From Promethearchaeota archaeon (GTDB lineage Archaea > Asgardarchaeota > Lokiarchaeia > Sigyniarchaeales > SOKP01), in contig JBHLOY010000001.1 in assembly GCA_048939995.1 (NCBI GenBank), positions 430,449 to 494,448 on the forward strand: 64,000 nucleotides of DNA, given 5' to 3'. Below the pieces are notes generated by a model. That model saw nothing but the letters and a program-made list of their open reading frames with translations, was not told the DNA's origin and made no database searches. Below are positions 30,210 to 58,416 of this stretch, one piece after another. A program made the translations under genes and the position numbers. Within the stretch, counting starts at the first letter, position 1. Every line of letters starts with the position of its first letter.

Positions 30210-30303
30210 GAAAAAGAGATATACTTATACTATTTATCAAAAATTTTTTTAGATATAAAATATGAAATAATTATACTGTTATATTGTTTGATCCCCCTTT
30301 TTA

Positions 30304-30407
30304 GGGCCTATAATCTAGTCTGGATTTAAGTTTTTATGAATGAATTTAACAGAAAGGGTGCCCGGCTTCGGACTGGGATGTCGCAGGTTCGAATCCTGCT
30401 AGGCCCG
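30304..30407 (+). tRNA. tRNA-Arg(TCG) with D-loop intron (about 30326-30354)
   Basis: GGGCCTA/TAGGCCC acceptor stem, CCCGG-CT-TCG-GA-CTGGG anticodon arm, GGTTCGAATCC T-arm. The 29-31 nt insert has a TTAAG/TTTAA stem; boundary uncertain by about 1 nt. Confidence 0.9.
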
Positions 30408-52448: not shown

Positions 52449-53129
52449 ATGTCAATTCTCAAGTACCAACTATTCGGAAAAAACTCAGTTGGAGTCTATC
52501 TTTCTGTTAATAACATATTTGGACTATACCCTTCCACATTATTAAATTTTGCAATTAAAAAAATTAAATCAGCTTTTAAAGAACCGTTTTTCCCTATATC
52601 CATTAATAATTCTACCCTTTTAGGAGTGTATCTTGCTAGTAACAAATATGGAATTGTTGTACCTCATATCGTTAGAGACGATGAGCTTAACAATTTAACC
52701 AAATTTGCCATAAATCTTAAAGATGATTACCAAATAGGGACAATAAAATCGATAGATAACGCTTTTGGAAATTTGATTTTATGTAATGATAAAGGTGCTA
52801 TTATTAGTTCCCTATTAAAAGATTTTAAACATGAAATAGAGAATATTTTAAATGTTGAAAGCGAAATTTTTGAATTTACAAACAATTATTTACCCGGATC
52901 AATTGGATTGGCTAATAATAATGGTTGCGTTGTACATCCATTGACCAATGACAAAGAGATAGAGCAAATTTCTTCAATCTTGAGGGTAAGTGAAGTAGAT
53001 GTATCCACAGTTAATAGGGGAATTCCATATTTGTCATCAGGAGCTACAGTGAATGATTATAGTGGTATTTTTGGATTAGCTTGCACTGGACCAGAATTGA
53101 TGCGTATGACAGATATTCTGGGGCTCTAG
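52449..53129 (+). CDS. eif6: Translation initiation factor 6 (aIF6)
   Basis: GNLILCNDKGA, NNNGCVVHP, TVNRGIPY, TGPELMR. Confidence 0.95.
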   Translation: MSILKYQLFGKNSVGVYLSVNNIFGLYPSTLLNFAIKKIKSAFKEPFFPISINNSTLLGVYLASNKYGIVVPHIVRDDELNNLTKFAINLKDDYQIGTIKSIDNAFGNLILCNDKGAIISSLLKDFKHEIENILNVESEIFEFTNNYLPGSIGLANNNGCVVHPLTNDKEIEQISSILRVSEVDVSTVNRGIPYLSSGATVNDYSGIFGLACTGPELMRMTDILGL

Positions 53130-53138
53130 GCCCCAGAA
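53116..53138 (+). other. GC-rich RNA hairpin with the eIF6 stop codon at its loop
   Basis: TTCTGGGGC-TCTAG-GCCCCAGAA perfect 9-bp inverted repeat. Confidence 0.55.
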
Positions 53139-53289
53139 AGGTTAATTTTTGACTATTAATAGTTATTAGCTATTAAAAATTCGCGAGTTATTAAGAGGCA
53201 ATTTCTCTTAATTATTCAAAAAGCAAAAATTTAATATTTTCAAAATAATTTTTACCATTAATCTCGTTAATATTTGGGTTTAAAATTTC

Positions 53290-53517
53290 ATGTCAGAGAT
53301 TAAAATTTATCGAATTATTGGCACTTATTATAAATATCATAAGAAATATTTGTTTCGAAAAGAAGTTCGAGCATTAAAAGAGGAGGATGCTCTCGAAAAA
53401 GCCTTAAGTCAAATTACTTCTATAGGGATTCTTAGAAGACAAATAAAAATCAATGAGATAAAAGAGATTCCTCCAGAAGAAGCACAAGATTACCTTATTC
53501 GTGAATTATCTCAATAA
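53290..53517 (+). CDS. rpl18a: 50S ribosomal protein LX (eL20/L18ae)
   Basis: KIYRIIG...FRKEVRALKEEDALEK...RRQIKINEIKEI; conserved synteny after eIF6. Confidence 0.9.
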   Translation: MSEIKIYRIIGTYYKYHKKYLFRKEVRALKEEDALEKALSQITSIGILRRQIKINEIKEIPPEEAQDYLIRELSQ

Positions 53518-53540
53518 ATTATTATAAATGGTTTAATCAA

Positions 53541-53963
53541 ATGGAAAGTAATCAGAATTTAGAAAATCAATTATATCAATTTAGGCTTATTAAAGAACAA
53601 CGTGAAATGTTCCAAGGTCAACTGGAAATCATTAATGCTTCATTAGGGAACTTATTAAATACAAAAAATACCCTTCAAAATATTAAAGAGGGTGTAAAAG
53701 AAAATGATGAAATGATTATTCCAATAGGAGGTTTAGTTGGAATAAAAGCTTCAATTCAAGACACCGAAAAAACTCTCTTATTTATTGGAAATGACAGTGT
53801 AATCGAAAAAGATATCGATGATTCTATTACATTTATTGAAAAATTAATTGAGCAACATAATGAACAAATAAAGACATTGACAGAAAGAATTCAAAAATTA
53901 GATTTTACTATTCAGGGAATGAGCCAATCCATTCAAGAGAGTTATTCAGGGAGGAGAGGTTAA
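53541..53963 (+). CDS. pfdA: Prefoldin alpha subunit
   Basis: Coiled coil-IIPIGG...IGNDSVIEK-coiled coil; synteny. Confidence 0.9.
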   Translation: MESNQNLENQLYQFRLIKEQREMFQGQLEIINASLGNLLNTKNTLQNIKEGVKENDEMIIPIGGLVGIKASIQDTEKTLLFIGNDSVIEKDIDDSITFIEKLIEQHNEQIKTLTERIQKLDFTIQGMSQSIQESYSGRRG

Positions 53964-54009
53964 TAAACATTAATTATGCCTTCTAATGTATATTTAAGTG
54001 AACATACCG

Positions 54010-54915
54010 ATGCTTGAACAATTAAAGAATGCATTTTCTAGTTTTATAAAGAAATCCTTATCTGATGAGAAAATTGATGATACTCTAAATGAGTTAAAAT
54101 TACTTCTCATAAGTAATGATGTTGCAGCTGAAACTGCTAATGAATTATGTAATAGTATTAAGAACTCGTTAAGCGGAGAACAAATCGGAAGATTCTCTTC
54201 AAAAAAGAAATATCTATTTGAAGTATTGAAGAATGTGATCACAGATGTATTGACTCCCGACCAAGATATCAATCTTCTAGACGAAATTAAGAACAGTGTA
54301 GAAAAAAATTTGCCTTATATAATAGTTTTTCTTGGTGTTAATGGAACTGGAAAAACTACGACTATTGCAAAAATAGCCTATTATTTAAAAAGGAATAATA
54401 TATCTTCTGTTGCTGCTGCTGCAGATACTTTTCGAGCGGCGGCTATAGAACAATTAATCTATCATATGGATAAAGTCGGAATTAGAGTTATTAAACATAA
54501 TTACAAATCTGATCCTGCAAGTGTTGCGTTTGATGCAATTCAGCATGCTATAGCGAAAGGAGTTAATGTAGTATTAATAGATACTGCTGGAAGGCAAGTT
54601 AGTAATAAAAACTTAATGACAGAAATGCAAAAAATTGTTAGAATTGCTCAACCAAACTTAATCGTTTTTGTAGGGGATAGCTTGGCTGGAAATGATGCTC
54701 TAATTCAAGCTAAAGAATTTAAAAATAAAGTCGGAATAAATGCTAACATTTTGACTAAACTGGATGCAGATGCAAAAGGAGGAGCAGCATTATCTATAGC
54801 TTTTGAAACAAAGAAACCAATAATCTTTGTAGGAACAGGACAAAATTATGATGATTTAAAACCTTTTAAAAAAGAATTCTTTATCTCCAATATTCTGGAC
54901 TTAAATGAAAATTAA
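54010..54915 (+). CDS. ftsY: SRP receptor FtsY
   Basis: GVNGTGKTTT, DTFRAAA, DTAGR, TKLDADAKGG, GTGQ. Confidence 0.96.
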   Translation: MLEQLKNAFSSFIKKSLSDEKIDDTLNELKLLLISNDVAAETANELCNSIKNSLSGEQIGRFSSKKKYLFEVLKNVITDVLTPDQDINLLDEIKNSVEKNLPYIIVFLGVNGTGKTTTIAKIAYYLKRNNISSVAAAADTFRAAAIEQLIYHMDKVGIRVIKHNYKSDPASVAFDAIQHAIAKGVNVVLIDTAGRQVSNKNLMTEMQKIVRIAQPNLIVFVGDSLAGNDALIQAKEFKNKVGINANILTKLDADAKGGAALSIAFETKKPIIFVGTGQNYDDLKPFKKEFFISNILDLNEN

Positions 54916-54970
54916 GCAGAATATTTTCCATATTAGTTAACTTTTTTAAATATTTAGTTTTAATTTATTT

Positions 54971-55225
54971 GTGTCAAAACAATACCCTAAATATGATAAA
55001 TACGAAAAATTTGACAAAAAGAAGAAGCCTAGTTTATATGAACGATTTGGTATATTTTTTCGTAATGCTAAAAGAGTCCTAAAAGTAGCAAACAAGCCTG
55101 GACGAAAAGATTATTTTCTTGTATTCAAGATATGCCTTATTGGATTAGTGCTTTTAGGTGCTGTCTCATGGGTAATTCAATTAATTTTTACGCTTGTTAA
55201 CGATGCGCTAGGAATTGGAAGCTAG
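54971..55225 (+). CDS. secE: Protein translocase SecE/Sec61-gamma
   Basis: RVLKVANKPGRKDY followed by a C-terminal TM helix. Confidence 0.9.
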   Translation: MSKQYPKYDKYEKFDKKKKPSLYERFGIFFRNAKRVLKVANKPGRKDYFLVFKICLIGLVLLGAVSWVIQLIFTLVNDALGIGS

Positions 55226-55232
55226 GAATTGG
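55207..55232 (+). repeat. 12-bp direct repeat GCTAGGAATTGG x2 across the secE stop
   Basis: Copies at 55207-55218 and 55221-55232. Confidence 0.6.
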
Positions 55233-55266
55233 CAACGTTTAATATTTTTATCTCTTTTTCATAATT

Positions 55267-55689
55267 ATGCAAGTAAAATTAAATCATCAAGAAAATCTCC
55301 ACTTTAAAGCATCAGTTAGAAATTTTGAAAATTTTGATCTAGATGAGCCGAAATCTTTTCATGGTACAGATTTTGGACCTAGTCCTGTTGAATATCTATT
55401 AATTGGGATTGGAGGGTGCCTTGGAAGTTCTTTTATGTATTGTTTAATCAAGAATGCAATTAAGATCACGAATTTGGAAATAGTTATAGAGGGGAAAATA
55501 AAGCATGTTAGTCCAAGTTTAAGATTGAAGTTGGTGGGAGTTGATATTAAAATTTTATATGGATTAGAAGATAAATCGTTTAAAGAGAAAACTATGAGAT
55601 GTATAAATGAATTTAAGCAACATTGTGTGGTTTCAGATTCTCTAATAAATGGTATCTCATTAAATATTGATTGTAAAGAATTATTTTAA
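55267..55689 (+). CDS. OsmC-family protein
   Basis: DEP...GPSPVEYLL...GGC...CVVSDSL. Confidence 0.88.
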   Translation: MQVKLNHQENLHFKASVRNFENFDLDEPKSFHGTDFGPSPVEYLLIGIGGCLGSSFMYCLIKNAIKITNLEIVIEGKIKHVSPSLRLKLVGVDIKILYGLEDKSFKEKTMRCINEFKQHCVVSDSLINGISLNIDCKELF

Positions 55690-55697
55690 GGATAAAT

Positions 55698-56925
55698 CTA
55701 AAATTGATAAATAATTATTTGATCTGGAATTATCAATTCTTCTTCTTTGTTTTTACAAGCGATAAATTTTATTTTCATTTTTAATGCTTCCGAAAGAAGA
55801 CGTTTGGTTAAGATCCCATCAATAATTAAATATTCAGTTTTATTATATTTTATAATCTCTTCAAATAATTCTTTGACAGGGATTTCAAATAATTTTTCTA
55901 GTTTATTGTTATATCCTATGCTATAATCGGGTGGAATTGTATCTAGGGCATCAATAATTATATTTTGGTTTTTAATTTTAAGCTTTTTAAGGAGTTTAGT
56001 AATCAAGGTTTCTGCAGGTTTTTTTTCCTTAGCTGAGGGGATTGTTTCTGATTTCTCTAAAGGTTCTGTTGTAGATCTTTTATTTTGAAGGGACTTTATC
56101 AATTGCTTCCTTGTTAATTCTTCTACTTCATAACCCTCAGGTGCTCGAGCAATAAAATCAACTTTTACTAGTTGCATTAATTCTTTTATAATTAGTTCAC
56201 CCCCACGATCTCCATCAGAGAAGATAATTATTGACTTTTTTTGTTTTGCTAAGTCTATTACAGATTTTGGGATATGAGTTCCTTGAACCGCTATACTATT
56301 TTTTATACCTATTCTTAATAAGTTTAGTACGTCTGCACGGCCCTCTACAATGATAAGTTCGTCGTTGCTATCGACTTCTGGTCCTGCAGGTAGTCCTTCA
56401 GGCCCCCATTTTATTATTTCGCCAAGTTTAATATCTGTATCTATCTTTTCTTCAATTTCACTAGGTTCGAGCGATTTTTGATCCCATTCTTTTAATAATT
56501 CTGCTGCTCGTTCAATAATTTTTTTGCGTTTGGTTTCTCTTACATCTCTAATTTCAATTAGTTTGATTTGGGCTTCACATGGTCCTACGCGAGTAACAGT
56601 TTCAACTGTCGCCGCCAATAATGCTGTCTCCTTTCTAGTTAATGAGGATGGAATTTTAATAATGCCTATTGAAAGGCCCTCTTTGGATTCATTTTCTACT
56701 TCAATCCTTCCAATTCGTCCTGATTTTTGAAGATCTCTTAAATCAAGATCTAAAAGGAGACCCTCGGTTTAGCCGATTGAGCCGAACTGGCTTTTTTTAT
56801 CTTTGACCAAATATGGCGCCGACTATATCGCTCTTTTCAACCACTCCTTTAATTTCAAATTTAGCTTCAATAATATATTTTGTAGTAAAATCTACTTGAT
56901 TATTGGTAATCTTGATCACTTCCAT
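55698..56925 (-). CDS. dnaG: Archaeal DnaG (TOPRIM; exosome-associated), two exons: 56925-56803 and 56768-55698, 397 aa spliced
   Basis: Exon 1 ...KYIIEAKFEIKGVVEKSDIVGAIFGQ; exon 2 TEGLLLDLDLRDLQKSGRIGRIEV...VEGRADV...DGDRGG. The ORF track shows only a 306-aa fragment. Confidence 0.92.
56769..56802 (-). other. 34-nt BHB-type intron in dnaG mRNA
   Basis: RNA: GGUC AA|A GAU...AUC GGCU AA|A. 4-bp central helix, two 3-nt bulges, intron-side helix GAU/AUC. Removal restores frame and motif. Confidence 0.85.
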
Positions 56926-57387: not shown

Positions 57388-58416
57388 ATGATTGAGAAAA
57401 TTATTGTGTTTGGAGGCAAAGGTGGGGTTGGAAAAAGTTCAATTAGCGCAGCAACTGCTGTTAGACTATCAGAATTACTCCCTGGAAAAAGAATTTTATT
57501 AATTTCATTTGATATAGCTCATAATCTATCGGATATTTTTGGAACGTCTATAAATAGTGAAATATCCCCAATTACGGCTAACTTGTGGGCGATTGAACCG
57601 GATCCAGATCTGTATGCTGAAGTATATACAAAGGATTTAGTAGAAAAAATGAAAACTTTGACAAAGCAAATGCCCATAATTGGAAGTTTACCCCAGATTG
57701 ATAAGTTTATTAATACAACTTTTACGTCTGATTCCATCCCACTAGCTTTAAAAAATGCAATGTTTTTCCAGAAATTACTAGATGCTGAAGATATCAATAC
57801 TCAAGACATCCATTTTGATATTATTGTAGCGGATTTTCCTCCTACAGGAAATATGGTTGCCCTTTTTGAAATTCCTGAAGATCAAGTAAAAGTTGTTCTT
57901 AAATATTCTTTAAATTTTTATAATTCAATCAAGAGCGCAATTAGGAATCTGTCGAAAATGTTTAGACAAATAATTAAACCATTTGATAATGGGACTTATG
58001 AAATGAGAAGGGAATTGGGAAAAGATATATTCAATATGATTGTAGAACTTGAAAAAAGAGGAGAGAGAATAAGTGAATTAATTCATAAAGTAGGATCCTT
58101 AAGATTAGTAACAATTGCAGAGCGTCCTAGTTTTGAAGAAGTAAAAAGAGCACGCGATTTGACCAAAAGATATATTTCCCTCCATGCAGTTCATATAAAT
58201 ATGATTACCCCTAAAGCGAAACGATGTGAATTTTGTAATATATTACGAGAAAATCAGCTAAAATTTATCGCAGAAATTAAAGAAGAATTTAAAAATATAA
58301 AAATTTGGGAATCAAATCGTCTTATTGAGGAACCAATTGGAATAGAAGGAATTAAAAAGTTAGCAGTAGAAATATATGGATCTGCCATAGCAGATGATAT
58401 ACTAAATCCAATTTAA
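57388..58416 (+). CDS. ArsA/GET3(TRC40)-family ATPase
   Basis: GGKGGVGKSS, SFDIAHNLSD, DFPPTG, C-terminal CEFC, EEPIG. Confidence 0.88.
   Translation: MIEKIIVFGGKGGVGKSSISAATAVRLSELLPGKRILLISFDIAHNLSDIFGTSINSEISPITANLWAIEPDPDLYAEVYTKDLVEKMKTLTKQMPIIGSLPQIDKFINTTFTSDSIPLALKNAMFFQKLLDAEDINTQDIHFDIIVADFPPTGNMVALFEIPEDQVKVVLKYSLNFYNSIKSAIRNLSKMFRQIIKPFDNGTYEMRRELGKDIFNMIVELEKRGERISELIHKVGSLRLVTIAERPSFEEVKRARDLTKRYISLHAVHINMITPKAKRCEFCNILRENQLKFIAEIKEEFKNIKIWESNRLIEEPIGIEGIKKLAVEIYGSAIADDILNPI

What the first reader, a model, noticed from the sequence alone, without database searches (positions are those of the whole stretch)
56769..56802. tRNA-type (BHB) intron inside the protein-coding gene dnaG: mRNA splicing in an Asgard archaeon
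Seen: on the minus strand dnaG reads ...GGT CAA [AGATAAAAAAAGCCAGTTCGGCTCAATCGGCTAA] ACC GAG GGT CTC. The 34-nt insert shifts the frame and introduces a stop after residue 42, in the middle of the highly conserved archaeal DnaG motif GAIFGQTEGLL. The RNA folds as GGUC/GGCU (4-bp central helix), two AAA bulges, an intron-side GAU/AUC helix and an inner AGCC/GGCU hairpin. Cutting after the second nucleotide of each bulge (the EndA rule) yields exactly GQ|TEGLL and a 397-aa protein. The exon-side helix is weak (relaxed HBh' form), as in this genome's tRNA introns, which are the same size (29-34 nt). Known: EndA-spliced mRNA introns in archaea are best documented for crenarchaeal cbf5, and archaeal DnaG is an RNA-binding exosome subunit. 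Inference: DnaG expression depends on EndA/RtcB splicing, possibly coupling RNA decay capacity to tRNA-splicing activity. Automated pipelines would call this gene truncated or frameshifted, so similar introns may be hidden genome-wide.
Basis: partly seen in the sequence, partly recalled or inferred. Interest (0 to 1): 0.93.

Follow-up and report, generated by a model that had tools for sequence, protein, structure and literature searches.

The report
tRNA-type intron in Loki-archaeon dnaG
The only dnaG gene of this Asgard (Loki-type) archaeon is broken by a 34-base insert shaped like the introns cut out of tRNAs, and at least ten other protein genes of the same genome are broken the same way, so these microbes very probably splice messenger RNA routinely, which the papers I could search report inside a coding sequence for only one archaeal gene (cbf5).

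Summary
Confirmed. A 34-nt insert (56769-56802, minus strand) splits the genome's single dnaG; removing it at the EndA cut positions restores a 397-aa DnaG. An insert sits at the same codon in 50 distinct related junctions (29-43 nt, always with a stop). The 4-bp central helix pairs in 50 of 50, and its synonymous exon base is matched by compensatory intron bases (C-G, U-G, A-U, G-U, G-C). Both exons are under purifying selection. The genome encodes a two-subunit EndA with a crenarchaeal-type loop, plus RtcB. Comparison with a relative's proteome and a pattern scan gave at least 10 more such inserts here (EF-1alpha, uL11, MetRS, PurA, mevalonate kinase and others); the relative has its own (EF-2, RNase HII). 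dnaG is hit at three sites within 33 nt across the class. Against: no spliced RNA found; the BHB is not the predicted lowest-energy fold. A dnaG-specific link to RNA decay is untested. This scan already noted dnaG and other mRNA BHB introns in other Asgard genomes; published coding-sequence cases I found are limited to cbf5.

The parts
56803..56925 (-). dnaG exon 1, 41 codons (ATG 56925; GTG 56919 is an alternative start), ends ...FGQ; holds the KY pair of the N-terminal RNA-binding domain
   Evidence: K6/Y7 role in Sulfolobus from PMC4227792, equivalence by motif likeness
56769..56802 (-). 34-nt BHB-type intron; frameshifting; premature TAA at 56799-56797
55698..56768 (-). dnaG exon 2, 356 codons plus stop; first in-frame start (TTG 56618) is 50 codons in
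56805..56808 (-). central helix, exon strand GGUC (Gly codon plus C of Gln)
   Evidence: pairs in 50 of 50 junctions, compensatory third pair
56802..56804 (-). 5' bulge AA^A, predicted cut between 56803 and 56802
   Evidence: EndA rule; register fixed by L038
56799..56801 (-). intron-side helix, 5' strand GAU
   Evidence: G-C 50 of 50, second pair 47 of 50, third 40 of 50
56780..56792 (-). inner hairpin AGCC-AGUUC-GGCU; GCC-N5-GGC present in all 36 long site-1 introns
56775..56777 (-). intron-side helix, 3' strand AUC
56771..56774 (-). central helix, intron strand GGCU
56768..56770 (-). 3' bulge AA^A, predicted cut between 56769 and 56768; two more unpaired bases follow (relaxed, loop-like form)
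56809..56811 (-). possible exon-side helix strand UUU (Phe), pairing with GAG at 56765-56763
   Evidence: paired in 20 of 20 but forced by the codons; TTC in 20 of 42 intron-bearing against 1 of 83 intronless genes; inferred

Best explanation
A bulge-helix-bulge (relaxed form) intron in the dnaG pre-mRNA. Shown: the insert, the frame break, the helix geometry and its covariation, selection on both exons, and the genes for EndA (alpha and beta) and RtcB. Inferred: the transcript folds, at least briefly, into the BHB; the two-subunit EndA cuts after the second base of each bulge; RtcB joins the exons; the joined mRNA gives full-length 397-aa DnaG, while unspliced mRNA gives a 42-residue peptide. 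It is one of at least 11 (13 with two weaker candidates) such introns in this genome. Most likely they are tolerated insertions that persist because a permissive EndA removes them, and that are gained and lost repeatedly.
For: Excision restores the conserved motif and adjacent model positions. Single copy in a 98%-complete genome. Same site in 50 distinct junctions from eight genera of the family, and in a second family; lengths 29-43 nt, all with a stop in the exon-1 frame. Third central pair: C-G 31, U-G 7, A-U 8, G-U 3, G-C 1; no shuffle of 10000 reaches this, though kin are not independent; 97% of cells paired against 19-53% for slid controls. Synonymous changes outnumber non-synonymous on both sides (12.3 to 5.0; 24.1 to 4.3), as in intronless genes. 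EndA alpha is closest to Aeropyrum 3p1z (E 5e-37), with Tyr/His/Lys and the K-P-R loop tied to relaxed substrates (PMC12397907); second subunit; RtcB. Of 10 insertion-type breaks with both flanks at least 7 of 10 identical to the relative's protein, 9 have 4 of 4 central pairs in a best-scoring register and metG in a register 2 nt away. tRNA genes here carry relaxed introns at non-canonical sites (rough).
Against: No spliced transcript or full-length close protein found. The BHB is not the predicted lowest-energy fold here or in most relatives; the central helix has two G-U pairs and no directly stacked exon helix. No cleavage assay. The ligase is assumed. Independent tree pairs are too few (5) for a significant test of the GGY codon bias.
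Confidence: 0.9

Rival explanations
1. Add-on to the best explanation: the dnaG intron is kept as a regulated switch. Competing folds (exon GGY with the inner GCC; intron GGCU with exon-2 GGUC) hide the BHB until a protein, perhaps DnaG or the exosome, shifts the fold, tuning DnaG levels.
For: The intron is old and conserved beyond the needs of a BHB (inner GCC-N5-GGC in 36 of 36); decoy folds are predicted; dnaG is hit at three sites within 33 nt; no locus examined had two; a negative-regulator role was proposed for the cbf5 intron (PMC2738675); exosome Rrp41 is present.
Against: 83 of 130 loci lack any intron and the tree needs at least 6-9 changes for site 1; the A-run is not conserved; similar five-base loops recur in introns of unrelated genes, so they are not dnaG-specific.
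Confidence: 0.2
2. No splicing: dnaG is split or decaying, and a shortened protein is made from an internal start in exon 2.
For: Databases hold only shortened forms (305-347 aa) for the closest relatives; a TTG lies at 56618.
Against: Those are gene calls. The first start lies anywhere from codon 5 to 251 among relatives, and the 50 codons before it and exon 1 are conserved; the N-terminal domain is needed for RNA binding (PMC4227792); EF-1alpha, uL11 and MetRS are single-copy and broken the same way.
Confidence: 0.03
3. Ribosomal bypassing or frameshifting over the insert, without cutting the RNA.
For: Hairpin plus early stop; the take-off codon CAA resembles the last intron triplet UAA.
Against: Lengths cover all three frames (29-43 nt); relatives have CAG before, or UAU at the end of, the insert; what covaries is the BHB central helix; ten unrelated genes share the geometry but not codons.
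Confidence: 0.03
4. Assembly artefact or a recent DNA element (MITE) insertion.
For: The genome is an assembly in 38 contigs with 5% contamination.
Against: Same site in 50 distinct junctions from independent assemblies; no second copy of the insert in the genome; no terminal inverted repeats seen in the sequence.
Confidence: 0.01

Closest known systems
BHB intron in the cbf5 pre-mRNA of Crenarchaeota (Watanabe 2002; Yoshinari 2006; Yokobori 2009, PMC2738675)
   Same: Short intron inside a coding sequence, often relaxed BHB, host with a hetero-oligomeric EndA, gain and loss among relatives.
   Different: Host gene dnaG, Asgard lineage, three sites in one gene, and at least 10 more genes in one genome; cbf5 here has an open frame with no stop. 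cbf5 splicing is shown by experiment; this is not.
BHB intron in the 5' UTR of Haloferax HVO_1309 (PMC7714728)
   Same: EndA acts on an mRNA.
   Different: Untranslated region, no frame break; different EndA type.
Non-canonical tRNA introns of Asgard archaea (bioRxiv 10.64898/2026.10.13.758758)
   Same: Same motif and enzyme type; repeated gains; missed by annotators.
   Different: That paper covers tRNA genes only (no occurrence of mRNA, cbf5 or dnaG).
HAC1/XBP1 non-spliceosomal mRNA splicing in eukaryotes (own knowledge)
   Same: A short frame-changing intron removed by an endonuclease and a tRNA ligase.
   Different: Cut by Ire1 at stem-loops, not by EndA at a BHB; an analogy, homology not claimed.

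Membership tests
Archaeal BHB (EndA-type) intron | 4-bp central helix between exon and intron | tested here: met
   50 of 50 paired, compensatory third pair
Archaeal BHB (EndA-type) intron | Cut after the second base of each 3-nt bulge restores the host RNA | tested here: met
   Gives GQ|TEGLL, 397 aa; only register in L038
Archaeal BHB (EndA-type) intron | Intron-side flanking helix | tested here: met
   GAU/AUC; 50, 47 and 40 of 50 paired
Archaeal BHB (EndA-type) intron | Exon-side helix stacked directly on the bulge (strict form) | tested here: not met
   No pair next to the bulge; 3 pairs after skipping 2 bases. Relaxed form, as often in cbf5
Archaeal BHB (EndA-type) intron | BHB is the favoured fold | tested here: inconclusive
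   Not the minimum-energy fold, yet covaries
Archaeal BHB (EndA-type) intron | Host encodes a broad-specificity EndA and a ligase | tested here: met
   Two EndA genes, catalytic one with K-P-R loop; RtcB
Archaeal BHB (EndA-type) intron | Cleavage and ligation seen in RNA | not testable with these tools
   Indirect search for spliced products negative
Archaeal DnaG (NF003108) | Score above the family cut-off, N-terminal domain plus TOPRIM | tested here: met
   363 bits against cut-off 300; exon 1 covers model 1-26
Group I or II self-splicing intron | Catalytic RNA core of hundreds of bases | tested here: not met
   34 nt; no Rfam match of meaning

The most novel reading that the evidence does not exclude
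Loki-type Asgard archaea routinely splice mRNAs with the tRNA machinery: a dozen or more genes per genome, essential ones among them, carry BHB introns that differ between relatives and recur at fixed sites, with dnaG a repeated target. This would be an intron-containing, splicing-dependent coding transcriptome in the prokaryotic lineage nearest eukaryotes, hidden by gene callers.
Probability: 0.8. Interest if true: 0.9.

Novelty: new variant of a known kind. Interest (0 to 1): 0.82.

Why it matters
The papers found treat archaeal mRNA splicing as a one-gene exception (cbf5; PMC7714728, PMC2738675). Here it appears in many core genes of an Asgard lineage. It gives a testable case of how introns can enter and persist in coding genes without a spliceosome, in cells where translation can start on unfinished transcripts. 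It also means that DnaG, EF-1alpha, EF-2, uL11, MetRS and others are mis-called as short or broken in Asgard databases, which affects marker-gene trees and completeness figures.

Tried and rejected
Looked for spliced products: no junction-spanning protein above 82% identity to a site-1 locus; contig L354 is unspliced; no intronless locus near-identical to a site-1 locus. So the spliced-RNA claim of e1-5453221 could not be checked. Free-energy folding and RNAalifold do not return the BHB. Rfam: nothing. No solved archaeal DnaG. No second copy of the intron in the genome, and no likeness to the tRNA introns by eye. The de novo scan is noisy (113 loci against 57 in a control), so only three hits were kept. 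400 kb of G044 showed no intron. A short co-conversion tract at site 2 was considered: L009 differs from near-identical L161/L164 over its whole upstream part, so recombination or a chimeric assembly cannot be told apart. The test of one origin for site 2 did not finish. The sigma-70 promoter scan is not suited to archaea and was at chance. C7(+)20329 was first mislabelled fwdA in my notes; it is a MoxR-type ATPase.

Full report
Observation. On the minus strand a 34-nt insert at 56769-56802 lies between the Gln and Thr codons of GAIFGQTEGLL. From ATG 56925 the unspliced frame stops after 42 residues; excision gives 397 aa. Exon 1 matches positions 1-26 and exon 2 positions 27-278 of the archaeal DnaG model. 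There is one dnaG in the 3.75-Mb, 98%-complete genome. Most records of related loci are titled Promethearchaeota, including Loki_b31 and Loki_b32, so the host is a Loki-type Asgard archaeon.

Anatomy. The junctions can form a 4-bp central helix GGUC/GGCU, each strand followed by an AAA bulge, a 3-bp intron helix GAU/AUC and an inner hairpin. Cutting after the second base of each bulge is one of four registers that give the same protein here; in L038 it is the only one. No exon pair stacks on the 3' bulge; three pairs are possible after two skipped bases, so the motif is relaxed. The BHB is not the predicted lowest-energy fold (about -5 against -15 kcal/mol) and RNAalifold prefers a weak rival hairpin. 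The case rests on comparison, not on energy.

Relatives. Of 130 distinct dnaG loci, 42 have an insert at this site, 5 have one 22 nt upstream, and 83 have none. A class-wide search and further loci extend the site to eight genera of the family and to a second family, and show a third site 33 nt upstream in another family. In 50 distinct junctions the insert is 29-43 nt, always has a stop in the exon-1 frame, and all four central pairs form. The third pair uses the free third base of the Gly codon: C-G 31, U-G 7, A-U 8, G-U 3, G-C 1. On a 20-row alignment 97% of cells pair, against 19-53% when partners are slid. Kin are not independent, and only five independent tree pairs were available for the codon-bias test. 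Both exons show the same excess of synonymous change as intronless genes, and the first internal start is not conserved, so the gene is alive and read from exon 1. The tree needs 9 changes for the long site-1 class (6 on firm branches) and 5 for site 2: repeated gain or loss, direction not settled.

Machinery. Two EndA genes and RtcB are present. One EndA has the Tyr, His and Lys catalytic motifs and is closest to Aeropyrum pernix EndA, including the K-P-R loop that PMC12397907 ties to relaxed substrates. The other lacks the His motif and is the likely structural subunit (inferred). A rough rebuild shows relaxed tRNA introns of mostly 16-31 nt at non-canonical sites.

Not alone. I compared the proteome of G061 (same family, another genus, intronless dnaG) with this genome: 1781 matches. 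Ten insertion-type breaks had both flanks at least 7 of 10 identical: dnaG, EF-1alpha, uL11, MetRS, mevalonate kinase, a PurM-like protein, an acyl-CoA dehydrogenase, a MoxR-type ATPase, a low-molecular-weight phosphatase and an unnamed gene beside rtcB. All are 21-37 nt and all can form the central helix (chance at most about 0.09 each). A pattern scan added purA, whose intron G061 shares, and two weaker candidates. G061 has its own in EF-2 and RNase HII. EF-1alpha is broken at the same model position in about ten genomes of four genera (not cut out and checked one by one). The count is a lower bound, since shared introns and genes missing from G061 are invisible.

Mechanism. Most likely the precursor forms the BHB briefly, EndA cuts both bulges, RtcB joins the exons, and full DnaG is made; unspliced message yields a 42-residue peptide lacking most of the N-terminal RNA-binding domain (PMC4227792). 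Cutting and joining are inferred, not shown: I found no spliced product. A regulatory role is possible, given the conserved inner hairpin and decoy folds, but a dnaG-specific link to RNA decay has no support beyond that.

Known work. PMC7714728 states that cbf5 was the only other mRNA BHB intron; PMC2738675 notes unconfirmed predictions for other genes; the 2026 Asgard preprint covers tRNA only. Seven searches found no report for Asgard coding genes; the library lacks most subscription journals. Earlier notes of this scan describe dnaG and other mRNA introns in other Asgard genomes and several of the inserts in this genome. They are unchecked AI notes and are not counted as support; EF-1alpha and uL11 came out of my scan before I opened them.

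Verdict. Real; works like, and by the testable features belongs to, the relaxed BHB intron class (0.9). New variant of a known kind: new host gene, new lineage, genome-wide use. Interest 0.82.

Noticed in passing
G000: C11(-)167345, C23(-)129234, C6(+)82172, C28(+)379867, C23(-)175447, C17(+)23476, C7(+)20329, C17(+)37247, C19(-)22792, C7(-)109926: BHB-type inserts of 21-37 nt in EF-1alpha, uL11, MetRS, mevalonate kinase, PurM-like, acyl-CoA dehydrogenase, MoxR-type ATPase, LMW phosphatase, an unnamed gene beside rtcB, and purA.
   Followed up: partly
G000: C17(-)377452 and C7(+)27864: Two more candidates (30 and 29 nt) with strong stems but no close intronless ortholog in the reference.
   Followed up: partly
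G061:C1 1382056(+), 2145572(-), about 335880(-), about 292050(-): The relative's own inserts in EF-2, RNase HII and a probable metallo-hydrolase, and a purA insert at the same site as in G000 with another sequence.
   Followed up: partly
L009, L016, L067, L168, L178 (site 2); L335, L336 (site 3): Two further dnaG intron sites, 22 and 33 nt upstream of this one; site 2 is scattered over the tree, and L016 sits among site-1 carriers but has site 2 instead.
   Followed up: partly
window 56788-56784 and other introns: A five-base hairpin loop of the form A-N-Y-U-(C/A) recurs in introns of unrelated genes (dnaG, acyl-CoA dehydrogenase, EF-1alpha, uL11, RNase HII, G061 purA); unexplained, enrichment not tested.
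   Followed up: no
L009 against L161 and L164; L067/L080; L058/L062; L038/L054: Pairs that differ in intron state are most divergent in the 60 nt before the junction; L009 is about 100% identical to L161 downstream but about 60% upstream of the gene (recombination or chimeric assembly).
   Followed up: partly
G000 introns: Eight of 13 lie within the first 45 codons, often inside the first conserved motif.
   Followed up: no
window 52449-55689 (+) and 57388-58416 (+): Ordinary neighbours: aIF-6, L18Ae, prefoldin alpha, FtsY, SecE, OsmC-like; an ArsA/GET3 ATPase diverges from dnaG.
   Followed up: no
G000:C11:460752-460855 (window about 30300-30400): An intron-bearing tRNA, probably Arg(TCG) with a 31-nt D-arm intron, missed by the window scan and called Ile by the genome scan.
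   Followed up: partly
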